Below are positions 3,958 to 40,626 of a stretch of 52,898 bases of DNA, one piece after another. The stretch is from positions 1 to 52,898 of the IMG/VR virus record IMGVR_UViG_3300036832_000092, one strand, 5' to 3'. Within the stretch, counting starts at the first letter, position 1. Every line of letters starts with the position of its first letter. The DNA comes from a virus. Lineage: Duplodnaviria; Caudoviricetes. The translations under genes and the position numbers were made by a program. The notes under the pieces are model-generated. The model was not told where the DNA came from, did no database searches, and was given only the letters and a program-made list of their open reading frames with translations.

Positions 3958-6524
3958 CAGTTATTGGTGAAGCCTACATCATGATCAAGGGTGTGTCTGA
4001 GGGCGATTCCGGTGTAAGCAAAATTGAAGGACAAATTTCTGGCGTTGGTGCATCTGCCGAGAAATCAAGTGGTCGTGCCAGGGCTGCATTCAAGTCAATG
4101 GGCACAGCGCTTGGCTCTGCGTTTGGTCCGGCATTCCAGCCGATTCAAGAAGTCATGGACAAGTTTGATGAGCTTGATATCCATGGAGGAAAGCTCAAGG
4201 ATAATGTCGGCAAATATGCATTAGGCATTGGTGCTGCAATGACTGGCGCCGGTACACTTTTGACGACTGTGTCTGATAAAGACAAAGTATCAATGGGACA
4301 ACTTGAGCAAGCGGTCAAGAATGCCGGTGGCGATTGGGAGAAGTACAAGGACAAGACTGAAGAGGTAGTCAAATCACAAGAGAAATATGGGCATACTGCC
4401 GTTGAGACATCTGGTGCTTTGAACGATCTTGTGACCAAAACGCACAATGTACATGATTCATATGAGAATATGCAGTTGGTTGCTGACGTTGCCGCTCAGA
4501 AGAATACCAGCTTGTCGTCTGCTGCATCTATTGTAGCCAAGGTGATGAATGGTAATACAAAGACGCTCAAGCAGTATGGCATCACGCAAGACGACATCAA
4601 CAAGAAGCTTGATACTGGCGCAATTCATACCAAGAATCTCCAGATGGCCCAGGCATTACAAGGAGTGGAAGCAAACAAGAATGCGTTGGCTGCGCTGAAG
4701 ACTCGTGATGCTCGTCTCAAGGAGATATTGGCAACAACTCAAGACAAAGGCCAGCAAGAATTATTGCGCAAGGAGATAGCCAAGGATTCAGATACACGTT
4801 CAAAGCTAACAGATGCGATGGGCAAGAACAAGGATAGGGCAAGTGCACTAAAGGCAGAACTCAAGCAATTGACTACTGGCCAAAAGGCAGGGGTGGCCGG
4901 TACTGAGTTGCTTGCGGAGAAGATGAAGGGCCAAGCAGCAATCGCTGCTGATACATTCTCTGGTAAGATGAAGGAAGTCAGAGCTAAGATTGAAGATTTT
5001 ATTGGTACCGTTGGGCAAAAGCTTGGACCAGCGCTCCAAATAGCCGGACCTGCCATGATGGGCTTTGGCGCTATTGTTGAATCTGGAATTGTAGGCAAGA
5101 TCGGCAATGGTATTGGCAAGATCAAAGAATTCATGAGCATGGAGAAGCTTGCTGGCGTTGCGACAAAGGTATGGACTGGTATTCAAGCAGCATTCAACAT
5201 AGTCATGGACGCCAACCCAATTGTGCTTGTGGGAGTAGCAATCACTGCCTTGGTTGGCGTTCTTGTTCTGGCATACCTCAAGTTCAAGCCATTCCATGAT
5301 TTGATCAACGCCATTGCTAGTGACATCAAGAAGTTCTTCATTGGCGCATTTGATGTTGTAATCAACGCATTCCATAGTTTCATCAACGCATTTGAAACAG
5401 TTTGGAAGTTTATACTTGACATCGTCAAGAAGTATTGGCCAATCATCCTTGCCGTGATATTGCCATTCGTTGGCATTCCAGTATTGATCATGCAAAACTG
5501 GAACAAGATCGTTAGCTTCTTTGAGAATCTGTGGGGCACGGTATCACAAATCTTCCAGAATGTCGTTGCGTGGTTTGGTCATTTACCATCAAGGATCATA
5601 ACTGCGCTGGGCAATATCGGCACAAAGGTTTGGTCTGCAATTCAAGCAGGCGTACAACACTTTGCTGATAAATTCATTGCGGTTGGCAAATCGCTCATTT
5701 CATACTTTGGCAAATTCGCCAGTCGCGTAATCAGCGGCATCGGCAATCTTGGTGCAAAAATATGGACCAATGTCTCGACAGGCCTGGGGAATTTGACCAA
5801 TGCCTTCACCAACTGGATTGGCAGAGCAGTTGATTGGTTTGGTACATTGCCAAACAAGGTCGTCAATGCAATTGGTAATATTGGCTCTGCTATCTGGAGT
5901 TCGGTTACATCAGGCTTGAATAACTTCATCAGTCACGTCACAAATTGGACTAGCAATATCGCCAACTATTTCGGCAACCTGCCGAGCAAAATCATTTCAG
6001 CTATTGGCAATCTAGGTTCCAAGATTTGGAATGGAGTCAGGGGTGGCCTTAGCACTATCAAGACTAATATTGTCAACGCATTCTCTGGCGCCGGATCATG
6101 GTTGCTTTCAGCTGGTAGTGATGTGGTCAGTGGCTTCATTCATGGCATCGAGAATATGTTTGGTAGCGTTGTGGATACTGCCAAGAGTTTGATCTCGCAC
6201 CTTGGACATTCTGTGCTGCATGCATTGGGTATCGGATCGCCATCAAAGGTGTATCATGAGATCGGCAAGAATGTCGCTGCTGGTCTCATTCAAGGTCTTG
6301 ATCATAGTCATGGCGATGTTGGAAATGCTGGTCGCCGACTGGTCAATGCTGTGATCCACAAGGATGGTGGCACAATTGGTGTGCCTATGCATGCGAATGC
6401 TGCGGGTGCTGGTGGCGGTCGGGTAATCAACTTGTTCCCCAATGCAATCATTGACTTTGGCAAGGAAAGCCCAGCGTCAATTGTCCAGCGCTTGCAGAGC
6501 GCAATTGTGGCGAGTAGGCTGTGA
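3954..6524 (+). CDS. Tape measure protein
   Basis: 856 aa; starts IGEAYI; ANPI hydrophobic segment, W/F periodic repeats, LGIGSPSKV near C-terminus. Confidence 0.93.
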   Translation: MTVIGEAYIMIKGVSEGDSGVSKIEGQISGVGASAEKSSGRARAAFKSMGTALGSAFGPAFQPIQEVMDKFDELDIHGGKLKDNVGKYALGIGAAMTGAGTLLTTVSDKDKVSMGQLEQAVKNAGGDWEKYKDKTEEVVKSQEKYGHTAVETSGALNDLVTKTHNVHDSYENMQLVADVAAQKNTSLSSAASIVAKVMNGNTKTLKQYGITQDDINKKLDTGAIHTKNLQMAQALQGVEANKNALAALKTRDARLKEILATTQDKGQQELLRKEIAKDSDTRSKLTDAMGKNKDRASALKAELKQLTTGQKAGVAGTELLAEKMKGQAAIAADTFSGKMKEVRAKIEDFIGTVGQKLGPALQIAGPAMMGFGAIVESGIVGKIGNGIGKIKEFMSMEKLAGVATKVWTGIQAAFNIVMDANPIVLVGVAITALVGVLVLAYLKFKPFHDLINAIASDIKKFFIGAFDVVINAFHSFINAFETVWKFILDIVKKYWPIILAVILPFVGIPVLIMQNWNKIVSFFENLWGTVSQIFQNVVAWFGHLPSRIITALGNIGTKVWSAIQAGVQHFADKFIAVGKSLISYFGKFASRVISGIGNLGAKIWTNVSTGLGNLTNAFTNWIGRAVDWFGTLPNKVVNAIGNIGSAIWSSVTSGLNNFISHVTNWTSNIANYFGNLPSKIISAIGNLGSKIWNGVRGGLSTIKTNIVNAFSGAGSWLLSAGSDVVSGFIHGIENMFGSVVDTAKSLISHLGHSVLHALGIGSPSKVYHEIGKNVAAGLIQGLDHSHGDVGNAGRRLVNAVIHKDGGTIGVPMHANAAGAGGGRVINLFPNAIIDFGKESPASIVQRLQSAIVASRL

Positions 6525-11677: not shown

Positions 11678-12907
11678 ATGCCTGTATTCTATGGCGCAAT
11701 TGATTTGGGCAAGAATGAATTGCGCAATGCTGTCGTCCAAAACCTTGGTGCTGCTCCATCATCGCCAATCAAAGGTCAATTGTATTACGATTCCACGGCC
11801 AATATGTTGTATTGGTGGAATGGAACAACTTGGATTGGCGCGGCAGGCTCGGCGCTCACCCCCGCAGCTACAGTTACAACACAGGCTGTTGGCGATGCGC
11901 CAGTTGTTGGCGCTAGTGCGAATTATGCGCGTGAAGATCACAAGCATGGTCGTGAAGCATTTGGCGCAGTCGTCGCACAAATCGCATTCGGCTCAGCTTC
12001 AGCAAATGGCGCTGCCGCAACAATCAGTCGTTCAGATCACGCGCACGGTACTCCAACGCACGACAATGCGGCTCACTCAGCCATCCCGCTAAGCGCATTT
12101 GCACAACCAATTGCAAACGTCAATATGGGTGGCTATCAGCTGATTGGTTTGGTTGCGCCGACGCAATCTGATTCAGCTGCCAGCAAGTCATATGTTGACA
12201 CTACTGCCCAAGGCTTGGATGCAAAGCAATCTGTGAAGGCGGCAAGCACAGGCAACCTTGCATTGAATGCGCCGCAAACAGTCGATGGAATTGCATTGGT
12301 TGCTGGTGATCGTGTGCTTGTAAAGGATCAGACCACACCTGCTAACAATGGGATTTATGTGGTTGCTGCCGCTGCGTGGACTCGTGCGCTTGATATGGAT
12401 GCATGGACAGAAATACCAGGCGCATTCACATTTGTCGAGCAAGGCACTCTGAATGCTGATAATGGTTGGGTATGTACTGCTGATCAAGGTGGTACACTTG
12501 GCACAACCGCAATCACTTGGACGCAATTCAGCGGGGCTGGGCAGGTCAACGCTGGCGCTGGTTTGACCAAGACCGGCAACACAATTGATGCTGTCGCTGG
12601 TGATACAAGCTTGACGGTCAATGCCGATGAGTTGCACGTCAACACGGCGGTTATCGCAACTGTTGCTGCATTGAATGCGGCCATAGCGGGCATGACCAAG
12701 AAGTATGCTACAAACCTTGTTGGTACAGCAAGCCCTGAAGTGATCACCCATAACCTCAATACACGAGACATTCAACTCACAGTGCTCAATGGCGCATCCC
12801 CATATACGGCTGTGGAAGTCGACTGGGATGCGACTACGGCCAACACGGTAACTATCAGATACAATCCAAATCTTGGCGCAGGTTACAGAGTTGTAGTTGT
12901 GGGCTGA
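11678..12907 (+). CDS. Tail fibre / minor structural protein
   Basis: YAREDHKH, AASKSYVD, GDRVLVKDQT..NGIY, THNLNT motifs. Confidence 0.8.
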   Translation: MPVFYGAIDLGKNELRNAVVQNLGAAPSSPIKGQLYYDSTANMLYWWNGTTWIGAAGSALTPAATVTTQAVGDAPVVGASANYAREDHKHGREAFGAVVAQIAFGSASANGAAATISRSDHAHGTPTHDNAAHSAIPLSAFAQPIANVNMGGYQLIGLVAPTQSDSAASKSYVDTTAQGLDAKQSVKAASTGNLALNAPQTVDGIALVAGDRVLVKDQTTPANNGIYVVAAAAWTRALDMDAWTEIPGAFTFVEQGTLNADNGWVCTADQGGTLGTTAITWTQFSGAGQVNAGAGLTKTGNTIDAVAGDTSLTVNADELHVNTAVIATVAALNAAIAGMTKKYATNLVGTASPEVITHNLNTRDIQLTVLNGASPYTAVEVDWDATTANTVTIRYNPNLGAGYRVVVVG

Positions 12908-14006: not shown

Positions 14007-15111
14007 TCATCATCATGTAGAATTGAAGATCGCAAAACATGCCTGGAGTCCATGGGGATTCCGGGCATTTTTGCTGCGCATTCTCTACCATTTCGGTATG
14101 AATCCGCCATTTACAGTTTCTTGGAGCCCATCCCCATCGTGCCTGGTGGTCAGAGTTCTGCTGCGAGCCTGTACAAGAGCCACTGTCGCGACACCTTTAC
14201 GGCGCATGTTCTCGCTGGCCTTCCGGCGCCTCACCCCGCAGATTCATGGCCCTTCATGTAATTCATGACAGCTTCACCAGCTTGGGCGAGAGGGTCAATC
14301 GACGTCTCCATGTAACTCATGGAACAGCCTTTCTCTACTAAATCGGTATGACATATCTGAATCCGCCAAATCAGTTCTAAGCAGAAGTCGATCTTGCCCA
14401 TGGTATTAGGTCTGATGCCTCACGCTCTGCTGCGAGGCTGACGTTCGCATGCCGTAGCTGCGATTCTCGTCAGCGCCCCACCCGGCTGGCAGGCCTCGAA
14501 AGTAAGCATCACGTAAGCATTAGTTATGAAAGGCATAAGAAAACCAGCTTTCACACCAGGGTTTACAGTAGATTCAGTGTTGCGGACGTAGCGCAACTGA
14601 AGGTTACGGCCCGCTCGATCCCCCAATAATTTCATGCACGCAAGCGCAACGAGCCGTTCGAGCCCCATGAATTTCATGGGGCGCGTTACGGACGGACTGT
14701 TGCGTCGCATACTTTCTCCCGAAACGGGTAAGCGAAGGATGTTCATGCGAAATATGGGACTAGCTAGGCGCTCTGCGAAGAGTAGCTCCGAAATTCCATG
14801 CGGGACATGCGCGCTACGGGTGGGCACAAGTCGATCTTGTGCAGCAGACCGAACCACCTCCTGACGTAAGGATTCATGAGAAATATGCGAGGAACTCAAA
14901 AGGTACCATGCGGGCCATGATCGATCTTTGTCAATAAAATAGTGTGATTCTTCTCATTTCCATGAGGTCGATGAGAGTTGCCTCAGGTTGGGGTGTTGTG
15001 AGTCCGACTAATAGGCGGATACCCCAATCTCTGGTTGCCTTATCGACAAGGCAGAAAATGCGAACTAGTAAATTGCTAGTCGCAAGCAAAATTACCATGG
15101 AGGTAATGAGA
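14007..15111. promoter_or_regulatory. ~1.1 kb non-coding control region between late and early genes
   Basis: No convincing ORF; diverged direct repeats, many hairpins, TAAAAT -10-like box at 14935-14940. Confidence 0.6.
14967..15058 (+). ncRNA. Pseudoknotted intergenic element, copy 0
   Basis: GTCGAT (14967-72) is complementary to loop ATCGAC of hairpin TTGCCTT/AAGGCAG; inserted stem GTTGGGGTGTT/GATACCCCAAT. Confidence 0.5.
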
Positions 15112-15549
15112 ATGTTCGAAATCACTGGCAAGCAGGTCATGGCGTCCGGCGCTGGTCACAACTACCACCTGTTCCGTAGCTGCTACGGTAACAAGTTGGG
15201 GCAGGGTTACCATGTCTCCGTTGGTAATGACATCTACCGTACGCACCGCGTATCGGTCGAAACTGCCATCGAGCAGGGTTACTTCGCATGCCGCGTATGC
15301 TATAAGCGTGCGGGGCTGACGGTCCCGGCTGCGGCCGACCGTGTGAAGGTCCGTGACGCTAAGCGTGCGGAACGTCTTGCGCGTAAGGCTGAGATTGAGG
15401 CTGCCAAGGCTGAGAACGTTGCCGCTCGTGCGGCGACTGACGCTGCGGTCGATGTGATCAAGGCTGCGAACGTTGAGGTTGACGTCAACGCTCTGATTGC
15501 GTCCCTGATCGACATGCTAAAGCTGGAGACTCTGGCCACTACGGTCTGA
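15112..15549 (+). CDS. Early protein with Ada-type Zn-binding-like motif
   Basis: GGAGG RBS at 15099; YHxxxxC...GYFACRVC followed by an Ala-rich helix. Confidence 0.7.
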   Translation: MFEITGKQVMASGAGHNYHLFRSCYGNKLGQGYHVSVGNDIYRTHRVSVETAIEQGYFACRVCYKRAGLTVPAAADRVKVRDAKRAERLARKAEIEAAKAENVAARAATDAAVDVIKAANVEVDVNALIASLIDMLKLETLATTV

Positions 15550-15604
15550 GTGCGTTGCGTTTGGCCATGCTAGTCATGGTCATTCGTTGCCTACTCAGGC
15601 AGAA
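15547..15604 (+). ncRNA. Pseudoknotted intergenic element, copy 1
   Basis: TGAGTG pairs with loop TACTCA of TTGCC/GGCAG; inserted CATG-CTAGT-CATG hairpin. Confidence 0.6.
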
Positions 15605-15630
15605 CTACCCTACTAGGAATGAGGAATCAA

Positions 15631-15840
15631 ATGGCAAACGTGCTCAGAGGTGTCGTAAAGGCATATCAAGACTGGGACTATCTCGACGTTGACGAGGAAG
15701 TCTCAGGTGAGCAAGTTGACGTTTCGATCTTCGCAGTCGTTGGGGAATTTGCGGGCAAGGAATTTGCCCATGATATCCCTGAGGGTTCCAAGATCGAATG
15801 GGACGCCGACTGGGAGCCTACCTACCAACTCAAGCAGTAA
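15631..15840 (+). CDS. Hypothetical early protein
   Basis: GAGGA RBS before ATG 15631; 69 aa acidic. Confidence 0.7.
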   Translation: MANVLRGVVKAYQDWDYLDVDEEVSGEQVDVSIFAVVGEFAGKEFAHDIPEGSKIEWDADWEPTYQLKQ

Positions 15841-15843
15841 ATC

Positions 15844-15903
15844 CGGTTGCGTTGCGTAATCTACATGCCTAGCATGTAGGTTGCGTTGCCCACCCGGGCA
15901 GAA
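15844..15903 (+). ncRNA. Pseudoknotted intergenic element, copy 2
   Basis: CGGTTG pairs 5/6 with loop CACCCG of TTGCC/GGCAG; 14-bp inserted hairpin. Confidence 0.6.
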
Positions 15904-15926
15904 TTACCGACTGAAGGAGAATCAGA

Positions 15927-16154
15927 ATGGCCATGGAGCCCAAGCCCAAGCCTGAGAAGTCGTTCAGCATTGACGGCATTGAAGTCAAGGTTGGCATGAT
16001 GTTCTGGGACTATGACTTGCGCCGTTGCCAGGTGCTAGCGGAGGAGCCATACAACCCATACGATGGTGTTGTTTGGTTCCGTACCACCACTGGTATGTTT
16101 GATGGTCAGCGCCTCTGGCGTCGCCACCCATCTACTGGTAAGCCCTGCTACTGA
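15927..16154 (+). CDS. Hypothetical early protein
   Basis: AAGGAG RBS; 75 aa. Confidence 0.75.
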   Translation: MAMEPKPKPEKSFSIDGIEVKVGMMFWDYDLRRCQVLAEEPYNPYDGVVWFRTTTGMFDGQRLWRRHPSTGKPCY

Positions 16155-16213
16155 ACACTCAACAGAATGTACATGCTAGTCATGTACATTCGATTGTCCG
16201 TTCAGGACAGAAA
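16152..16213 (+). ncRNA. Pseudoknotted intergenic element, copy 3
   Basis: TGAAC pairs with loop GTTCA of TTGTCC/GGACAG; perfect 11-bp hairpin GAATGTACATG-CTAGT-CATGTACATTC. Confidence 0.55.
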
Positions 16214-16328
16214 GGATTCTCAAGCCTGATAGGCCTGAGGATTCGGTCTTGCCCTGCCAGTCCGGCAGGAGTAAGGTCAGCGCTAGCAAGGAGATTCCTT
16301 GCTAGGCATGCGATCCAGGAGGAACGCA

Positions 16329-16910
16329 ATGACTGAAGTGAATGAGGAGATCAAGGCAACCGCAGAGTCGGATGCCCCAGTCCCCGCAACGTCCGACGGT
16401 GCGGAAGGGGCACCTGCCGACAGCACTCCCGTGGTCAAGACGCCCAAGTCTTGGGCCGACCGTATCAAGACGAGTCTTGAGAACGGACGGCAGAACGCGC
16501 GGTACATCAAGTTCAAGGAGTTCATCGCCGATGAATCCAATGGTGAAACGGTCGCTGACCTGGACACCATCGCTCTGGTGATGACCTTGATCAACGGATG
16601 GCGTGCGACTCCTGAGTACAAGGAGTGGGACGCAGAATACCGTGCGACGACTGGTGGAGGCACGACGCCCAAGGACGTCAAGCCCAAGACCAAGGAGGAA
16701 GCGCAGGCACTGGTCAAGAAGGCAGAAGAGAGTGCTGCCCGACAGGCCAAGGCCAAGGCCACTGCTGAGGCTCGCGCAGAGCGTGCGCGGCTGATGCTGG
16801 CTGAGCTGGAGCAGGAGGCTGCTGGCGAGGGTGTCGAGGCTGATGAATCCGATGAGGACATCACCGACGACACTGGCGACGCTGACGATTCCACGGATGA
16901 AGCGTTCTAG
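16329..16910 (+). CDS. Hypothetical acidic/helical early protein
   Basis: AGGAGG RBS before ATG 16329; high-GC3 codon usage. Confidence 0.8.
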   Translation: MTEVNEEIKATAESDAPVPATSDGAEGAPADSTPVVKTPKSWADRIKTSLENGRQNARYIKFKEFIADESNGETVADLDTIALVMTLINGWRATPEYKEWDAEYRATTGGGTTPKDVKPKTKEEAQALVKKAEESAARQAKAKATAEARAERARLMLAELEQEAAGEGVEADESDEDITDDTGDADDSTDEAF

Positions 16911-16931
16911 CAGACGCTAATTCCCATGGTG

Positions 16932-16968
16932 CGGATGGGGCCTGGTCGAACTGACCTGGCCCTATCCG
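16932..16968 (+). terminator. Strong hairpin after gene (terminator or stabiliser)
   Basis: CGGATGGGGCC-TGGTC..GACCT-GGCCCTATCCG; no U-tract. Confidence 0.4.
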
Positions 16969-16990
16969 GGCATGTACCTTGATCTCAACA

Positions 16991-17054
16991 GGTCGAAACT
17001 CCATGCACGGCATGTGTATGGAGTCCGCATGTAAGGCATGCGCTGATGATGACC
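16991..17054 (+). ncRNA. Hammerhead ribozyme, type II; predicted cleavage after C17025 (GUC)
   Basis: GGTC-GAAA-[CTCCATGCAC/GTGTATGGAG]-TC-[CGCATG/CATGCG]-CTGATGA-T-GACC; loop I TAAGG can pair with upstream CCTTG (16977-81). Confidence 0.88.
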
Positions 17055-17094
17055 AAATGTCTCAGTCAGAACATCGAACCAGGGAGAATCCCCA

Positions 17095-17670
17095 ATGGAA
17101 AGTGAGAAACGTCCCATCACGGACAGTCAGATCAAGTATCTGACTGACCTTGCTGGCTCACGGCAGATGGAAGATGCCGACAGGCTATTCCTACTGGAGC
17201 ACATGAAAGACTTCGACACCAAGTTGGCGTCAAAGTGGATTGATGCGCTCAAGATGCTGCCGCCAAGGCCCAAGCAGTTGCCGAAGCCCAAGTGGTCCGT
17301 GCCTGACGTGATCCCAGATGGTCGTTATGCGATCCTGAATCCCAGTAAGGCATGGGTATTCTTTCGCATTCTGACCAAGGAAGATCGTCAGAACGGACTG
17401 GAGTACAGGATTGTCCAAAAGATCCTTGGGGCGCCTGGTGATTTCAGGTACGTCAGAGTCACCGCAGAGGAGTGGAACCTTGCGATCACAAAGATCGCAG
17501 TGGATCCAGGCCTGTTCTCGCAGATGTTCGGCATCCAAGTCGGTGTCTGCGGGGTGTGTGGCAGTCCGCTGACGGACCCCACTTCAATCAAGTTGGGTAT
17601 CGGCCCAATTTGCGCTGCGAAGTATGGGTTATTCGGCGACGATGAGGCTGACGAGGCTGACGATGAGTGA
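17095..17670 (+). CDS. DUF6011-like Zn-ribbon protein
   Basis: CGVCGSPLTDPTSIKLGIGPICA motif. Confidence 0.8.
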   Translation: MESEKRPITDSQIKYLTDLAGSRQMEDADRLFLLEHMKDFDTKLASKWIDALKMLPPRPKQLPKPKWSVPDVIPDGRYAILNPSKAWVFFRILTKEDRQNGLEYRIVQKILGAPGDFRYVRVTAEEWNLAITKIAVDPGLFSQMFGIQVGVCGVCGSPLTDPTSIKLGIGPICAAKYGLFGDDEADEADDE

Positions 17671-17920
17671 GCCGCAGAAGTTCCAGTCAATCGAACTGGA
17701 CTGCCCACCTGGCATGGTGCGCCCAAATGATCTGTTCGACGCTGTCGTCAAGGATCTGGGCATCGAGCCCATATCACGTGATGTCCCATGTATGTTTGGA
17801 CATTCTGAGTGGTTCTTCAGAATCGACAGACCTACATGGGAGGCTAAGTATCAGCCAACAATCAAGGAACGTGTGGAGCGCCTGTACAATTCGGGAGTGA
17901 TCAGATACGGCAGCTGGTAA
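17663..17920 (+). CDS. Hypothetical protein
   Basis: GAGG before ATG 17663; overlaps previous stop. Confidence 0.7.
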   Translation: MSEPQKFQSIELDCPPGMVRPNDLFDAVVKDLGIEPISRDVPCMFGHSEWFFRIDRPTWEAKYQPTIKERVERLYNSGVIRYGSW

Positions 17921-17979
17921 CCATGTTTGGCCGCAGACGATAGTGCTGCGGTCATTCATGGCTATCAAGGTGATAGTCA

Positions 17980-18264
17980 ATGGAAATGAGGAAGGGTCAA
18001 ATGGGACAAGACTCGCTCAGAGTTGAGGGTTTGTCGGTGGGACGACTGTATCGCATTATCTACAGGAATCCTTTGGACAAACTACCACGGCAGATGATTG
18101 CTAAGTACATGGGTCAGGAGGATAGCGCAGACACGCTGTTCTTCAATCTGCGCCCAATTGCCGGCACCCAAGCGATCAAGATCGAATGGATACAACAGCT
18201 ATGGGAGACAGACCAAATCGTCGCTGCACCAACGATCTATCGTGGCGAAACGCGAGTGTTCTGA
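17980..18264 (+). CDS. Hypothetical protein
   Basis: AAGGTG RBS; 94 aa. Confidence 0.65.
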   Translation: MEMRKGQMGQDSLRVEGLSVGRLYRIIYRNPLDKLPRQMIAKYMGQEDSADTLFFNLRPIAGTQAIKIEWIQQLWETDQIVAAPTIYRGETRVF

Positions 18265-18354
18265 GCAAGGATGTTTGGTCATGTTGTGATACATGGCCAT
18301 TCACCCCTGTTCAGGGGAAGTTCCCATCAACCCATGGAGAATTGAGGAGAGTCA

Positions 18355-20295
18355 ATGGAGGAACAGCAGGAACAGAATCACCAGGCTATACCTGGTGGCT
18401 CAATCGCTGCGGCTATAGCGGCCAAGACTGCCGCTGAGAAGCCCATAGATCCCAAGTGTTACTTGGACATCGAGAATGGGTTCATCAGCGTCAAGTCAAG
18501 GTACTCCGCTATGGCCAACGTCGTGTATCGACAGCAAGGTGGTCGTTGGAAGGATGACGACAACGGCAAAAGATGGCTGCTACCTCTGACGATGGAGACA
18601 TGCCAGGCGCTTCGCAAGCATTGGAAGCAAGACTTGGTGATCTCCAAATCCCTCAACCAATGGGCGAGAGGTGAGAAGGTCAGACAAGAGGCTGTTGCAG
18701 CACTTCACAAGGCAGAAAGTGCAACGCTGAATGAAGTCTCGGTCACGCACCCCGCATTAGCGAAAGCCATGGATAGCAGAACTTACCAACAGGTTGGTGC
18801 TGCGTTCATTGCTCATCAAAGGTCTGTGCTCATTGCTGATGAGCCTGGCTTGGGCAAAACGCTTGAAGCTATTGCGGGAATTGTCGAGGCTGGGTGTTGG
18901 CGAGGATTGATCCTTGTCGCTGCGCCGCTCACCAGTCTACGGACTGTGTGGGAACATGAGCTGTCGAAGTGGGCTCCTGAAGCCCATGTAGTGATTGGTG
19001 TTCCCAAGAAGCACGATAATGCTGCTGCGCGCATTGACTTGCAGAACAAGTTCATTGAGCACTACGCAGAGAATCCTCTACAACCGCATATCTTGGTTGT
19101 GAATCCTGAGATGCTTCAGGCTCGCAAGCAAGACAACTTTGTCCTGTTCACAGCAGTTGAGTGGCAGGCAATTGTGGTCGATGAAAGCCATAAATACTTG
19201 GCTGGCATTGAGTCTGCACGCAAGCATACGCAGACTGGTAAAGGATTGCTTGATCTCAAGCTAGCAGAAGATGGGGTCAAGATCGCATTGTCGGGAACAC
19301 CCATGCGCGGCAGGCCGTGGCACTTGTGGGGTACGTTGCACTGGTTGCGTCCCAAGCAGTACACTGCGGCATGGAGATGGTATGAACGATACTTCCTCAT
19401 GACCAAGGGATGGGGCGGCAGTCAAACGATTGGTGCGCTAAACCCATGGCGACAAGAGCAATTCTACAAGTCGCTTGATGACATCATGCTTCGCAGAACA
19501 AAAGCTGAGGTCGTCAAGGAACTACCTGCCAAGCAGCACATCGACATCATGGTCGATATGACCAGTTCCCAAGAGGCCATGTACAAGTCTATGGCAGCCG
19601 ATGCTGCCGCAGAGTTGCTAGGCATGGACTTTGGGGATGATGATGCTGGGAGTATCTCGGCTGTTGGTGTCCTTGCCATCATGACACGCCTCAAGCAGTT
19701 TGCGGACTGCGCATGGAGAGGCGCGAACATTGAGGGCATGGTACCTACAGCAAAGATGCATCCTTTGCATTCTGGCAAGACTGCGGTCATTGAGGATATG
19801 CTCATCGAACGTGGAATTGCTGGACCTATGGATGAGCGGGATGGCAATCACAAGATCGTTATTGCCAGCCAGTTCACCAAGGTCATCGACTCGCTGGAGG
19901 AATACCTTGATGGCATTGGAGTCGATTGCCTCAAGATTACCGGTGGCGTGAATGAGCAACAACGTGTATCGGCTACCCAACGGTTCCAGTCTGAAGGTGG
20001 ACCGCGTGTAATGCTCATGAATACCAAGGCGGGTGGCGTATCGATCACGCTCGATGCGTTCTGCGATGAGCTCATCATTATCGATGAGACATGGACGCCA
20101 GACGATCAGGAGCAGTTGGAAGATCGTATCCACCGGGTGAGTCGTATTCACCAAGTGACGATCTACAGGCTGCTGACCAAGGAGTCCATCGACGAATACA
20201 TTGCGGACATCATTGCTCGCAAGGATTCAATCCAGAAGCAGATTCTGGATGGTCGTCGTGGAGTCGAGAACATAGCTGCTGCGATCGTGCGGTAG
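18355..20295 (+). CDS. SNF2-family (SF2) DNA helicase
   Basis: ADEPGLGKT, VDESH, LSGTP, QLEDRIHR motifs. Confidence 0.93.
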   Translation: MEEQQEQNHQAIPGGSIAAAIAAKTAAEKPIDPKCYLDIENGFISVKSRYSAMANVVYRQQGGRWKDDDNGKRWLLPLTMETCQALRKHWKQDLVISKSLNQWARGEKVRQEAVAALHKAESATLNEVSVTHPALAKAMDSRTYQQVGAAFIAHQRSVLIADEPGLGKTLEAIAGIVEAGCWRGLILVAAPLTSLRTVWEHELSKWAPEAHVVIGVPKKHDNAAARIDLQNKFIEHYAENPLQPHILVVNPEMLQARKQDNFVLFTAVEWQAIVVDESHKYLAGIESARKHTQTGKGLLDLKLAEDGVKIALSGTPMRGRPWHLWGTLHWLRPKQYTAAWRWYERYFLMTKGWGGSQTIGALNPWRQEQFYKSLDDIMLRRTKAEVVKELPAKQHIDIMVDMTSSQEAMYKSMAADAAAELLGMDFGDDDAGSISAVGVLAIMTRLKQFADCAWRGANIEGMVPTAKMHPLHSGKTAVIEDMLIERGIAGPMDERDGNHKIVIASQFTKVIDSLEEYLDGIGVDCLKITGGVNEQQRVSATQRFQSEGGPRVMLMNTKAGGVSITLDAFCDELIIIDETWTPDDQEQLEDRIHRVSRIHQVTIYRLLTKESIDEYIADIIARKDSIQKQILDGRRGVENIAAAIVR

Positions 20296-20434
20296 AGCTC
20301 ACATTGACCTCATGGAAATGGGAAGAATCAAAAAGCCAACAGTTACATGTGTCGGACAGCGTCCGATTCGTCCTGGAAAGTCGATCTTGTCTTGGAAGTA
20401 AAATCAGAGTAAGATCGACTCATGGAAATTCCAC

Positions 20435-21214
20435 ATGAAAGGAATGATGATGGACGAACGAACATGGGAGCAAAACGCTCTTGAATTCGCTGAACTGGAC
20501 AAGGGTGAGGGCTGGCCATTTGCCATCCTTGTCGCTTGCTCAGTTCAACCAGGCAAAGTTGGTGGTCGTCGTTCAAATCTCGATCGAGATTTGAAGGTTG
20601 ACGCAACAACATTTGCAGCTAGGGCAGAAACCAGCAATGATCGCATCCTCAGGTATTACAGGGCATGGCAGAAAGCTGCATTGAATGGCTATGTACCCAA
20701 TGCTGATACGCTGAAGCCAAGTGATGTCGATAACGTCAAGTTGCCGACACTTGCTTGGTCAAAGAGTGATGCTGCGCCTGGTGAGCCTTTTGCCTACTCA
20801 GCATCCGCAGAAGCAGCGGCCACAAAGCCAACTACTGCCAAGCAGGTGCAGAAGGCACTTGATTCATTACCACCTGTTCAACGTGATCAGGTTGTGAATC
20901 ATGCGCTTGGGCAAAGGGCTGCTGAAAGTCGCAAGGCCAATGCAATTATTGCTGAAGAGCAAGAATTGCGGATGATGGCTGAAGATCGCAAGATTCTTAC
21001 CAATGAGGATCTTGGTATCACAGGCAGTAGTTTCCCAGAGTTCGAGGCCATGGCTGTTTACAGTCATAACATGCTGTTGATCAGGAAGCGTTCCAAGGAA
21101 CTGATCAAGATCCTTAGCAACATTGCCGTTGTGAAGGATGAGAAAGCAGTTGCGTTACTTGGTGATCTTGTTGATGCGATTGCGCCTCATTTGGCGGTGA
21201 AGGACGATGCGTGA
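20435..21214 (+). CDS. Hypothetical protein, putative HTH DNA-binding
   Basis: KVDATTFAARAETSNDRILRYYRAW resembles an HTH segment seen in actinobacterial/phage proteins; true start may be 20444-20450. Confidence 0.55.
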   Translation: MKGMMMDERTWEQNALEFAELDKGEGWPFAILVACSVQPGKVGGRRSNLDRDLKVDATTFAARAETSNDRILRYYRAWQKAALNGYVPNADTLKPSDVDNVKLPTLAWSKSDAAPGEPFAYSASAEAAATKPTTAKQVQKALDSLPPVQRDQVVNHALGQRAAESRKANAIIAEEQELRMMAEDRKILTNEDLGITGSSFPEFEAMAVYSHNMLLIRKRSKELIKILSNIAVVKDEKAVALLGDLVDAIAPHLAVKDDA

Positions 21215-21668
21215 GACAATTCAGCGGCAATGGACTAGACTGGAGTATAAGCTAGCTCATAACATTGTCGACATGGTCAAAGATGCTGGTGTTGCTGGGG
21301 TGATATTCAAGCCAACGCTTGTGTTGCATGATATCATGCCCCTTGCTGTGATGATTGCAAGCAAGGAAAAGCCAGGCTATACATTGATCAATGATGATGG
21401 ATGGTACGTCATCACGAATGATAAGCATCAGATATTCAAGGTGCTGTTCAATCGTCTCAAAAAGGTAGATACCGCAATCAGAAGGATTCAAGCTGAAATG
21501 CAGCCACTGGGCTACAGCATGGAGACTATGGAGGTGATGACTTCAATCAACTCTATGATCCATGCAATCTCATCATCTGAATTGGCGGAATGTATTGCGA
21601 ATCTACTAGATGAATACAAAGCAATAGAAACAGTTTGGGAAACAACCAAGCGCGAAGTGAGTAACTAA
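21207..21668 (+). CDS. Hypothetical protein
   Basis: Overlaps the upstream gene end; 153 aa. Confidence 0.7.
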   Translation: MRETIQRQWTRLEYKLAHNIVDMVKDAGVAGVIFKPTLVLHDIMPLAVMIASKEKPGYTLINDDGWYVITNDKHQIFKVLFNRLKKVDTAIRRIQAEMQPLGYSMETMEVMTSINSMIHAISSSELAECIANLLDEYKAIETVWETTKREVSN

Positions 21669-21885
21669 CCTAATCGACATTGGACAAATCGGACGCTGTC
21701 CTGCACGTGTAAACGAATAAGCATGGGGTGTATGGGGATGCCAAATCCTCATGCGCTCCATGTTGTTTTGCCCAATTGTCTACTTTGCCTATAGGCAAAT
21801 AGAGCAAGCGCAGAATGTCCATGCCTACCATGGGTCCACGTCCGATTCACCCTGAATTTAGTCCGATTTCGCCCGATTTCTCCCC

Positions 21886-21914
21886 TTTACTAAACGCGAT
21901 TGGTACGGTAGAAT
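21886..21914 (+). promoter_or_regulatory. Sigma70/SigA-type promoter
   Basis: TTTACT-17 bp-TAGAAT in an intergenic region. Confidence 0.6.
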
Positions 21915-21959
21915 CAGTCTGGAAAGCATGGGAAAATCGAGGCGATTGGATAGAGACAC

Positions 21960-22196
21960 TTGACGTACAGAATTGCTATCAACCATGGCTCGCTTGAGAA
22001 TCCTTTGGATAGGGTAGCAATGCGAGCGGTGCGGAATGCAACTGACCCCTTCTGTACTGCTATGTATGGGATCAATGAAGTGACGACATACTGTATTGCG
22101 GACGGTGGACTGGAGCCTGTGCTCACGGCCATCGCCCGCAATCGTCGCATTTCATGGCTGGTCCAAGTCAACTATCACACCGATGTGGAGGAGTGA
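21960..22196 (+). CDS. Hypothetical protein
   Basis: 78 aa ORF downstream of the promoter. Confidence 0.5.
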   Translation: MTYRIAINHGSLENPLDRVAMRAVRNATDPFCTAMYGINEVTTYCIADGGLEPVLTAIARNRRISWLVQVNYHTDVEE

Positions 22197-31498: not shown

Positions 31499-31666
31499 GC
31501 TAAAAGTTGTGAGCCGCCAAATCAGCCCTAAGAGAAGTCGATCTTAGTCAGTCCGTTAGGACTGCCATTGACTGAAATGCTCTTACGCAGCGATACAAGT
31601 ACCGGCAACAAGGCTTTACGCTCGGCGCCCAGCCGGAGTCTCGCCGATCGGAACTAGTTGGGAAGT

Positions 31667-40377: not shown

Positions 40378-40615
40378 GAAGATACCAGGCCTGTTTGGAA
40401 TTCATGAAAGCGCTGCTATAGATACGTAAGATACGTGCCTCTTACCCGTTAGTAGAGTTACTCTATGAGTAGTTGGGAAGATGACAGTTGGAAGATCGTT
40501 TAGGAAAATAATCCTTCAGAGAAGTAGGATAGAGGTATCTTACGTATCTTTCAATTTGAAAAGCATGCGATTCAACGTATCTTGCCTGGTATCTTCCGGT
40601 ATCTGACGTATCTTC
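40378..40615. repeat. AGATAC/GTATCT iteron array with nested inverted repeats; putative replication origin
   Basis: 3 AGATAC then 6 GTATCT; perfect inverted repeats 40378-90/40584-96 and 40420-34/40535-49. Confidence 0.65.
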
Positions 40616-40626
40616 GCCAAAGGAGC

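What the first reader, a model, noticed from the sequence alone, without database searches (positions are those of the whole stretch)
14945..21712. Candidate RNA-architecture system: ribozyme, pseudoknots and long-range helices organising the early transcript
Seen: almost every intergenic spacer from 14.9 to 21.7 kb holds a defined RNA structure, namely 4 pseudoknot elements, 1 hammerhead, 3 tandem-U.U hairpins and 2 long-range helices whose arms abut at 20330/20343. Inference: a polycistronic early RNA is cut, end-protected and closed into looped or panhandle units by cis-acting RNA, playing the role RNase III sites play in T7 early mRNA but partly host-independent. I know of no description of this combination in a tailed phage.
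Basis: partly seen in the sequence, partly recalled or inferred. Interest (0 to 1): 0.9.

Follow-up and report, generated by a model that had tools for sequence, protein, structure and literature searches.

The report
RNA punctuation of a phage early operon
The gaps between this soil phage's early genes hold one self-cutting hammerhead RNA, several copies of an uncatalogued folded RNA that begins at the upstream gene's stop codon and takes the hammerhead's place, and a long-range RNA helix joining the start and end of the operon, all of which probably divide and protect one long message, though no cutting has been shown.

Summary
Every spacer from 14.9 to 21.7 kb is strongly folded on the + strand.

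- **Hammerhead:** 16988-17062 is a type II hammerhead, scoring 52.3 bits (E 1.7e-12) against a model built only from relatives.
- **S-type element:** the "pseudoknots" and "U.U hairpins" are one family. It is a 20-25 bp rod whose 5' basal strand usually contains the upstream stop codon. Its 3' basal strand is the loop of a second small hairpin. I found 21 copies in 8 phage contigs, 95% paired, with 15 of 19 pairs covarying. It has no Rfam match. It fills the same gene junctions that hold hammerheads in relative L003.
- **Helix 1 (leader to helicase trailer):** real, favours the + strand and recurs in L003.
- **Helix 2:** real, but it brackets a two-gene insertion and shows no strand bias. A DNA-level role is equally likely.

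Hammerhead punctuation of phage operons has been known since 2011. This scan has also noted similar stop-codon two-state elements on other DNA. No RNA data exist, so cutting and looping remain inferred. I class this as a new variant of a known kind.

The parts
14945..14977 (+). Helix 1, 5' arm (leader of the early unit). It overlaps the 5' basal strand of element S0.
   Evidence: There are 29 contiguous pairs with 20302-20330. The pairing ranks 1 of 7551 windows. The core TGATTCTTCTCATT is shared with L003 4570-4583.
14967..15053 (+). S0: S-type rod hairpin in the leader. Basal strands are 14967-14975 / 15039-15047; the alternative small hairpin is 15036-15053.
   Evidence: 9-pair basal stem, 6-pair small hairpin. 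Models R2 and R3 do not find it because its upper stem is much longer. Membership rests on my own parse.
15544..15601 (+). S1: S-type element. The TGA stop of the upstream gene (15547-15549) lies inside the basal stem. It has a tandem U.U loop.
   Evidence: (74.5 bits).
15842..15900 (+). S2: S-type element. It starts 2 nt after the TAA stop.
   Evidence: (70.8 bits).
16151..16209 (+). S3: S-type element with the TGA stop (16152-16154) inside the basal stem. Three further stable hairpins follow, up to 16328.
   Evidence: (63.6 bits).
16988..17062 (+). Type II hammerhead. GAAA is at 16995-16998, GUC at 17023-17025 (predicted cut after 17025), CUGAUGA at 17043-17049, and an extra U at 17050.
   Evidence: 52.3 bits, E 1.7e-12, model built from relatives only. 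The orthologous hammerhead lies before the g5 homologue in L003.
17918..17978 (+). S5: variant two-hairpin element after the TAA stop. It has a tandem U.U loop and a 9-pair second hairpin whose 5' strand can pair with the stop-codon region instead.
   Evidence: R2 and R3 do not find it. L003 has a hammerhead in the same junction.
18261..18317 (+). S6: S-type element with the TGA stop (18262-18264) inside the basal stem and a tandem U.U loop. It lies before the SNF2 helicase gene.
   Evidence: E 0.015; 43.1 bits, E 6.6e-9.
20298..20330 (+). Helix 1, 3' arm. It starts 3 nt after the helicase stop codon.
   Evidence: The L003 counterpart is 11865-11881.
20343..20373 (.). Helix 2, left arm. It contains the palindrome TCGGAC-N3-GTCCGA and a GTCCGATT repeat. 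It lies just upstream of a promoter-like TTGTCT-17-TAAGAT at 20385-20413 (read by eye; 8 of 12 matches, below the scan's cut-off).
20447..21668 (+). Two-gene cassette (g9 20447-21214, g10 21207-21668) enclosed by helix 2 and absent from L003.
   Evidence: 1445 nt versus 47 nt between shared landmarks; no tblastn match in 9 loci; g9 has only 2 distant relatives; a DUF6192-like lead only.
21682..21712 (.). Helix 2, right arm.
   Evidence: 27 Watson-Crick + 3 G.U + 5 mismatches over 35 positions; -51.6 kcal/mol on the + strand versus -50.8 on the - strand.
21720..21771 (+). 20-pair hairpin followed by TTGTTTT: the probable terminator of the early unit. It matches in position the terminator that directly follows the helix 1 arm in L003.
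   Evidence: The simple terminator scan did not list it.

Best explanation
The small early genes up to the SNF2 helicase are most likely made as one long + strand RNA that is punctuated at every gene junction by cis-acting RNA modules. These modules define and protect the ends of single-gene messages. Three kinds are present.

(a) One type II hammerhead (16988-17062) cuts itself after GUC. This leaves a hairpin at the 3' end of the upstream piece and a hairpin at the 5' end of the downstream piece.

(b) Five copies of an uncatalogued 'S-type' element (S0, S1, S2, S3, S6) plus one variant (S5) do the equivalent job. Each is a 20-25 bp rod with fixed 1x1, 1x1 and 2x2 internal loops, which looks like a double-strand RNase (RNase III type) site. 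Its 5' basal strand holds the upstream stop codon. Its 3' basal strand can refold into a small conserved hairpin (UUGUCC-loop-GGACAG, then GAA) a few tens of bases before the next start codon. I infer that the rod is cut by a host or phage nuclease, or is opened by the terminating ribosome. The small hairpin then becomes the protective 5' cap of the next message.

(c) A 33-bp leader-trailer helix joins the first bases of the unit to the bases right after the helicase stop. This resembles the processing stalks of rRNA operons. It either gives a long RNase III site or ties the two ends together.

Shown: the structures, their covariation, their strand, their placement, and their exchange with hammerheads. 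Inferred: co-transcription, cutting, the nuclease, and end protection.
For: Hammerhead:
- It scores 52.3 bits, E 1.7e-12, against a relatives-only model.
- The model's own alignment has 14 of 17 pairs with double changes.

S-type family:
- Model R3 finds 27 matches at E<=0.01 in the 28 sources I gave it. 21 are on the gene strand, in 8 contigs: window 4, L097 4, L015 1, L114+L106 7, L105 2, L029 1, L027 1, L004 1. The other 6 are weaker reverse-strand echoes.
- 354 of 372 rod cells are paired. 21 of 21 copies form the small hairpin without a mismatch.
- 15 of 19 pairs show double changes. 0 of 500 shuffles reach the observed pairing. Slid controls give 27-42% paired against 95% observed.
- In 14 of 21 copies the stop codon of a 61-228-codon upstream frame lies inside the basal stem at the same position. 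The loop covaries with UGA, UAG or UAA.

Exchange with hammerheads:
- L003 (g7 85% and g6 60% identical) has hammerheads in the g6|g7 and g7|g8 junctions where the window has S5 and S6.
- L003, L004 and L005 carry 12, 6 and 9 hammerheads. L097 carries 0 hammerheads and 4 S-type elements.
- Mixed sets occur in the window, in L004 and in the L029/L027 lineage.

Strand: 7 of 9 spacers are more stable on the + strand.

Helix 1:
- It ranks 1 of 7551 windows here and 1 of 3116 in L003.
- It scores -54.7 kcal/mol on the + strand against -46.2 on the - strand.

Precedents:
- Hammerheads flank genes in prophages (PMC3088659).
- RNase III cuts long-range mRNA duplexes of 10-36 bp (PMC11780869, section read).
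- Internal loops limit RNase III to one strand and leave protective 3' hairpins (PMC1540722, passage).
Against: - No RNA evidence at all. No RNA run holds this DNA (reported as tried only).
- The host is unknown, so the presence and preferences of its RNase III are unknown.
- The strong sequence conservation of GAUUGCG / CGUUGUCC / GGACAGAA across distant phages exceeds what a generic double-strand RNase site needs. It may point to a specific protein or to catalysis.
- S0 and S5 are not found by either model and rest on my own parse.
- The R3 alignment is fitted to the model's structure, and many copies are paralogues. Both inflate the covariation measures.
- Helix 1 is absent behind the helicase gene of L004, L005 and L097.
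- The hammerhead's extra U sits next to stem II and could lower its activity. The only support that it is tolerated comes from a viroid hammerhead (PMC3705267, passage).
- Promoters and the terminator were read by eye. The consensus scan found no more sites than in shuffles.
Confidence: 0.55

Rival explanations
1. The S-type element is a new class of self-cleaving ribozyme. It would cut between the long hairpin and the small hairpin, as the hammerhead does between stems III and I.
For: - It replaces hammerheads in orthologous junctions.
- It co-occurs with hammerheads in three lineages.
- Its size is about 65 nt.
- It has two conserved, competing or pseudoknotted helices.
- Linker letters are strongly conserved across distant phages.
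- It has no Rfam match.
Against: - Most conserved letters can be placed in Watson-Crick or G.U pairs of a plain rod. Few conserved unpaired positions are left for an active site.
- The nested minimum-energy and centroid folds are the rod in 6 of 6 window elements.
- Nothing has been tested.
Confidence: 0.12
2. The S-type element does not direct any cut. It would be a ribosome-gated two-state switch or insulator. The ribosome that terminates on the stop codon inside the basal stem opens the rod, the small hairpin forms, and this sets the context of the next ribosome-binding site (translational coupling or insulation).
For: - The stop codon lies inside the basal stem at one fixed position in 14 of 21 copies, and within 8 nt in 19 of 21.
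- The two folds overlap by 1-3 nt in 10 of 10 copies checked.
- The small hairpin ends a short distance before the next start. In one search the predicted start lay 9-41 nt after the match's end in 20 of 21 copies.
Against: - A purely translational device would not be expected to stand in for a self-cutting RNA at the same junctions.
- I found no pairing between the element and the downstream Shine-Dalgarno sequence.
- S0 lies in a leader with no upstream gene.
Confidence: 0.18
3. Helix 2, and possibly helix 1, acts on DNA and not in RNA. The arms would be the inverted ends of an inserted gene cassette (a moron) and/or operator sites for a DNA-binding regulator near promoters.
For: - Helix 2 encloses g9-g10, which L003 lacks between the same landmarks and which has no homologue in 9 related loci.
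- There is no strand bias: -51.6 versus -50.8 kcal/mol.
- Each arm holds the palindrome TCGGAC-N3-GTCCGA.
- GTCCGATT occurs 4 times, all within 20361-21868, and twice about 24 nt upstream of a promoter-like -35.
- Related soil contigs break off exactly at 14945, the edge of helix 1.
Against: - I saw no target-site duplication and recognised no transposase.
- No second copy of the arms exists in IMG/VR. The one exact match of an 18-mer lies in unrelated coding DNA.
- The GTCCGATT count is only weakly above chance: 3 of 100 shuffles reach 4.
- For helix 1, the 8.5 kcal/mol + strand advantage and its conservation at transcript-level positions in L003 favour RNA.
Confidence: 0.4

Closest known systems
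Clustered type II hammerhead ribozymes flanking genes in prophages and phages (Perreault et al. 2011, PMC3088659; passages read)
   Same: - A self-cutting hammerhead sits between small phage genes.
- Relatives L003, L004 and L005 carry 12, 6 and 9 of them in one early region.
- The proposed role is cutting a long phage RNA into gene-length messages.
   Different: - Here only one junction keeps a hammerhead, and it has an extra U after A9.
- The other junctions use a different, uncatalogued RNA.
- The commonly described pseudoknot between loop I and the 3' tail is not evident.
RNase III processing hairpins of phage T7 early mRNA (R0.3-R1.3; recalled). General rules for E. coli RNase III substrates come from PMC1540722 (passage read).
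   Same: - Intercistronic position in an early polycistronic RNA.
- About two helical turns of imperfect duplex with internal loops.
- The expected products carry a 3' hairpin.
   Different: - The S-type element has a conserved sequence signature shared by distant phages.
- It embeds the upstream stop codon.
- It has a conserved alternative 3' hairpin.
- No nuclease has been shown to cut it, and the host is unknown.
Leader-trailer processing helices of bacterial rRNA operons (PMC10250234, search listing and abstract only) and long-range RNase III duplexes in B. subtilis mRNAs (PMC11780869, section 24 read)
   Same: - A 29-33 bp duplex forms between the start and the end of a multi-kilobase transcript unit.
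- The duplex length lies within the 10-36 bp range reported for RNase III targets.
   Different: - The span here is 5.3 kb (7.3 kb in L003), against at most 505 nt in the B. subtilis mRNA set.
- It encloses protein genes, not rRNA.
- A boxA element was not established.
Phage morons and inverted-repeat-flanked insertions (recalled)
   Same: Helix 2 flanks a two-gene unit that has its own promoter-like site and is inserted between the operon end and its terminator.
   Different: I found no transposase, no target duplication and no other copies.

Membership tests
Hammerhead ribozyme, type II | Conserved core: CUGAUGA ... GAAA, with a NUH (here GUC) cleavage triplet | tested here: met
   alignment: CGAAAC, GUC and CUGAUGA are all present. 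One U is inserted between A9 and stem II.
Hammerhead ribozyme, type II | Three stems, with I and III closed by loops and II open (type II permutation) | tested here: met
   stem II GGUC/GACC is open, stem III has 10 pairs and stem I has 6 pairs. Covariation for these stems comes from relatives (14 of 17 pairs).
Hammerhead ribozyme, type II | Reaches Rfam's curated score for RF02276 | tested here: not met
   There was no Hammerhead_II match even at E<=10. The clear hammerheads of L003 also stay below the cut-off (19.6-30.4 bits versus 37). The curated model therefore fits this phage group poorly.
Hammerhead ribozyme, type II | Tertiary pseudoknot between loop I and the 3' tail (common, not universal) | tested here: inconclusive
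   By eye, the 3' tail holds no complement to loop UAAGG. A 5-pair complement CCUUG lies upstream instead.
Hammerhead ribozyme, type II | Self-cleavage | not testable with these tools
   This needs in-vitro transcription. An extra U at this position raised activity in a viroid hammerhead (PMC3705267).
RNase III processing hairpin | Imperfect duplex of about two helical turns with internal loops | tested here: met
   20-25 pairs with 1x1, 1x1 and 2x2 loops in the window and in L097.
RNase III processing hairpin | Cleavage by RNase III, leaving 2-nt 3' overhangs or a single nick | not testable with these tools
   No RNA data. The host is unknown.
   The basal stem overlaps the small hairpin's stem by 1-3 nt in 10 of 10 copies, and it uses the whole 4-6 nt loop. 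The folding programs used cannot model pseudoknots.
rRNA-type leader-trailer helix | Long-range pairing of leader and trailer that brackets the unit and is kept in relatives | tested here: met
   present in the window and in L003. It is absent in L004, L005 and L097.
rRNA-type leader-trailer helix | boxA antitermination signal in the leader | not tested
   The host is unknown. The resemblance of TGATTCTTCTCATT to boxA is only a recalled impression.
Transposon or MITE (for helix 2) | Terminal inverted repeats | tested here: met
   31 nt, 87%.
Transposon or MITE (for helix 2) | Target-site duplication, a transposase, or further copies | tested here: not met
   No duplication is visible in the flanks. 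Pfam and PHROGs found no family for g9 or g10. IMG/VR holds no related copy.

The most novel reading that the evidence does not exclude
The S-type element is a new functional class of RNA. It would be either a self-cleaving ribozyme, or a termination-sensing switch whose basal helix holds the stop codon so that the terminating ribosome itself triggers cutting or refolding. Phages would swap it freely with hammerheads. Together with the leader-trailer helix, which competes with S0 for the same leader bases, it would make the state of the first junction depend on completion of the 5.3-kb transcript.
Probability: 0.15. Interest if true: 0.9.

Novelty: new variant of a known kind. Interest (0 to 1): 0.6.

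Why it matters
Hammerhead punctuation of phage operons is known, but what phages use when the hammerhead is missing is not.

Here the same gene junctions carry a hammerhead in one phage and a conserved, uncatalogued, stop-codon-embracing RNA in another. This offers a natural swap experiment for asking what intercistronic RNA modules do.

If the element is an RNase site, it extends the T7 early-mRNA paradigm to soil phages and adds a built-in 5' cap hairpin. If it cuts by itself or senses termination, it is a new RNA class.

The leader-trailer helix adds to the evidence that kilobase-range RNA pairing organises phage messages.

Tried and rejected
Tried without result:
- Megablast of 14945-21712 against GenBank phages found no match.
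- RNA evidence: no RNA holder was listed for this DNA. Laying contigs of three soil DNA runs gave no usable variants inside the elements, because only the best-supported 40 of 423 differences were shown. It did show contigs that break off at 14945, 15605, 15848 and 16167.
- Pattern scans of IMG/VR for the S1/S3 loop region and for the U.U hairpin consensus found nothing.
- The scan for the helix 1 core returned 21 stretches, of which only L003's own contig is related.

Considered and rejected:
- The leader might also mask the first gene's ribosome-binding site. The duplex energy ranks only 4392 of 7551 in the window and 157 of 3116 in L003, so I dropped the idea.
- The hairpins might be DNA operators (CATG-N5-CATG). 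This is unlikely, because the variable flanks stay complementary through G.U pairs, and the + strand folds are up to 14 kcal/mol better than the - strand folds.
- The S-type elements might be decayed hammerheads. The hammerhead model finds nothing there even at E<=10 with filters off.
- The L005 923-978 match to R2 (E 0.27) was not examined and is not counted.
- Of the 18 IMG/VR pattern matches, I judged by fold that only those in L101, L104, L113, L106, L114 and perhaps L105 belong to the family. The rest were dropped.

Papers:
- Four searches found no description of the S-type motif or of a leader-trailer helix in a phage early operon. This does not prove absence.
- Supplements were closed. 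Dataset S1 of PMC3088659 may list hammerheads of this phage group.

Full report
**What the window is.** It is a 52,898-base IMG/VR virus record, estimated 76% complete. It has no near relative among GenBank phages. From 15.1 to 21.7 kb it carries ten + strand genes, which I number g1 to g10:
- Seven are small genes, among them a DUF6011 protein.
- One is a 646-aa SNF2 helicase at 18355-20295.
- Two further genes, g9 and g10, follow it.

The gaps between these genes are 80-190 nt, whereas most of the genome is tightly packed. The helicase's nearest named relatives are actinophage helicases at about 42% identity. The host is unknown.

**Checking the observation.** Rfam finds nothing at its curated cut-offs. 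At E<=10 it finds only chance-level miRNA and snoRNA matches. Even so, all nine spacers tested fold far better than dinucleotide shuffles on the + strand (z -2.0 to -8.2). Fifteen coding controls averaged z -0.52. The + strand beats the - strand in 7 of 9 spacers.

**The hammerhead.**
- *Relatives.* Contigs whose helicase is 55-58% identical (L003, L004, L005) have the string GGUCGAAAC-hairpin-GUC-hairpin-CUGAUGAGACC in almost every early spacer. Rfam's type II model sees six of those in L003, all below its cut-off.
- *Model.* I aligned 24 of them. 14 of 17 predicted pairs show double compensatory changes. A model built from these relatives alone finds exactly one strong match in the window: 16988-17062, 52.3 bits, E 1.7e-12. 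It finds 12, 6 and 9 matches in L003, L004 and L005.
- *Deviation.* The window's copy has one extra U between CUGAUGA and stem II. A review of a viroid hammerhead reports that an extra base at this place is tolerated and that U is the most active choice (PMC3705267, passage).
- *Precedent.* That several hammerheads flank single genes in prophages, probably cutting long phage RNAs into gene-length messages, was published in 2011 (PMC3088659, passages). This part is a new member of a known kind.

**The S-type element: structure.**
- *Rod.* When the last codons of the upstream gene are included, the minimum-energy and centroid folds of all six window elements are a single rod of 20-25 pairs. It is interrupted by 1x1, 1x1 and 2x2 loops.
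- *Basal stem.* The 'pseudoknot' pairing is the basal stem of that rod.
- *Small hairpin.* The 3' strand of the basal stem is the loop of a small second hairpin, followed in most copies by GAA. The basal stem overlaps that hairpin's stem by 1-3 nt in 10 of 10 copies checked. The two folds therefore compete, or form a strained pseudoknot.

**The S-type element: distribution.**
- A model built from S1-S3 finds S6 and one copy in L015.
- It finds four copies in L097, a contig whose helicase is 63% identical and which has no hammerhead.
- It finds weak copies in a distant lineage (L027-L029) that also carries a hammerhead.
- A signature scan of IMG/VR and a nine-sequence model raised the count. 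There are 21 gene-strand copies in 8 contigs, including 7 in one 71-kb phage, plus 6 weaker reverse-strand echoes (28 loci given).

**The S-type element: covariation and placement.**
- Across the 21 copies, 354 of 372 rod cells pair, and all 21 form the small hairpin without mismatch.
- 15 of 19 pairs show double changes. No shuffle of 500 reaches the observed pairing, and slid partners give 27-42%.
- The alignment is fitted to the model and many copies are paralogues, so these figures are generous.
- In 14 of 21 copies, the stop codon that closes a 61-228-codon upstream frame lies inside the basal stem at one fixed position. In four more it lies 3-8 nt upstream.
- The loop letters follow the stop codon's identity, whether UGA, UAG or UAA.
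- S0 and S5 are not found by the models and rest on my own parse.

**Why I think it processes RNA.** The window and L003 share g5, g6 (60%), g7 (85%) and the helicase. In the g6|g7 and g7|g8 junctions L003 has hammerheads, and the window has S5 and S6. Before g5, both have the hammerhead. L097 uses only S-type elements. L003 and L005 use only hammerheads. The window, L004 and the L029 lineage mix them.

Both modules have the same layout: a long hairpin, a short linker, and a small hairpin a few tens of bases before the next start. After a cut in the linker, each would leave a 3' hairpin on one message and a 5' hairpin on the next.

The rod looks like an RNase III substrate. Such substrates span about two helical turns, and internal loops can restrict cutting to one strand and leave protective 3' hairpins (PMC1540722, passage). 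This is inference, because no end has been mapped. The conserved linker letters, the stop-codon embedding and the two-state fold keep two rivals alive: a new ribozyme, and a ribosome-gated switch without cutting.

**Helix 1.** Positions 14945-14977 pair with 20298-20330 through 29 contiguous pairs. Over 37 positions there are 32 Watson-Crick pairs, 3 G.U pairs and 2 mismatches.
- *Placement.* The 3' arm starts 3 nt after the helicase stop.
- *Rank.* The pairing ranks first of 7551 windows along the genome.
- *Strand.* It is 8.5 kcal/mol more stable on the + strand.
- *Conservation.* L003 has the same arrangement: a perfect 17-pair helix between its leader and the bases after its helicase stop, ranked first of 3116, with the shared core TGATTCTTCTCATT. 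I found no such pairing for the stretch behind the helicase gene of L004, L005 or L097.
- *Competition with S0.* The 5' arm overlaps S0's basal strand, so the two pairings compete.
- *Closest known.* These are rRNA leader-trailer stalks and the long-range RNase III duplexes of B. subtilis mRNAs, which are 10-36 bp long and up to 505 nt apart (PMC11780869).

**Helix 2.** Positions 20343-20373 and 21682-21712 are complementary (27 Watson-Crick pairs, 3 G.U pairs and 5 mismatches over 35 positions) with no strand bias.
- *Insertion.* They enclose g9-g10. Between the helix 1 arm and a conserved ATTGTCTAC...CCTATAGGCAA motif, L003 has 47 nt holding a terminator. The window has 1445 nt holding helix 2, a promoter-like site, g9, g10 and then a terminator-like hairpin.
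- *The genes.* g9 and g10 have no homologue in nine related loci. g9 is rare.
- *Operator-like features.* Each arm holds the palindrome TCGGAC-N3-GTCCGA. GTCCGATT recurs upstream of two promoter-like sites, although the count is only weakly above chance.
- *Reading.* I cannot decide between an RNA helix that loops out an inserted cassette and DNA-level ends or operators.

**Verdict.** The known part is hammerhead punctuation. The less known parts are the S-type family and the conserved leader-trailer helix of an early protein-coding operon.

Earlier notes of this scan describe similar things on other DNA. They include stop-codon-embedded two-state elements, hairpins that replace hammerheads, and gene-enclosing long-range stems. 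Sequence look-ups found no shared sequence with them. Those notes are not independent evidence.

Noticed in passing
window 14269-14944; also 20381 and 31538; L003 3800-4660: The roughly 840-nt non-coding stretch before the early unit carries repeats of TCGATCTT(G) at 14388, 14831 and 14921. The same word recurs at 20381 and 31538. It occurs about ten times, in both orientations, in the matching stretch of L003. The repeats may be regulator sites, iterons or a phage-specific promoter element.
   Followed up: partly
window 14362-14395 and 31509-31545: Two stretches share about 30 letters of the form CGCCAAATCAG..CTAAG.AGAAGTCGATCTT. One lies ahead of the early region and the other ahead of the 1090-aa gene. 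They are possibly a repeated promoter or operator.
   Followed up: no
window 21775-21800; L003 11926-11949; L097 about 4390-4420: The conserved motif ATTGTCTAC...CCTATAGGCAA contains a perfect 16-bp palindrome, TTTGCCTATAGGCAAA. It lies just after the early terminator and before the next promoter-like site, and is kept in L003 and, more loosely, in L097.
   Followed up: partly
window 14269-22095: CATG is three times denser in non-coding stretches (20.8 per kb) than in coding stretches (7.0 per kb) of this region. It forms the core of most hairpin stems. The apical loops of S1-S3, L015 and several L097 and L114 copies contain CUAG.
   Followed up: partly
L003 9899-9966; L004 4411, 6299, 6635; L005 9875: Many relatives' hammerheads are followed by CAUCAG, which is complementary to the core's CUGAUG. 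This is a possible built-in alternative pairing that could switch the ribozyme off after cutting.
   Followed up: no
L097 5711-5723: The 5' strand of one S-type copy reads TGATCTGATCTGA, which places a TGA in all three reading frames.
   Followed up: no
window 14945, 15605, 15848, 16167 (runs X1-X3): Contigs of related phages in three soil DNA runs match the window up to the borders of helix 1 or of S-type elements and then diverge into other genes. The elements therefore sit at mosaic joints between gene modules.
   Followed up: partly
window 40420-40626: This non-coding stretch has repeated ACGTATCTT / GTATCTTAC words and a 26-nt inverted repeat (40420-40445 / 40524-40549). It is a possible origin or iteron cluster.
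   Followed up: no
window 20447-21214: g9 has only two distant relatives in 5.8 billion proteins. By language-model features it resembles DUF6192 proteins of Actinomycetota (score 0.96, a lead only). This hints at an actinobacterial host.
   Followed up: partly
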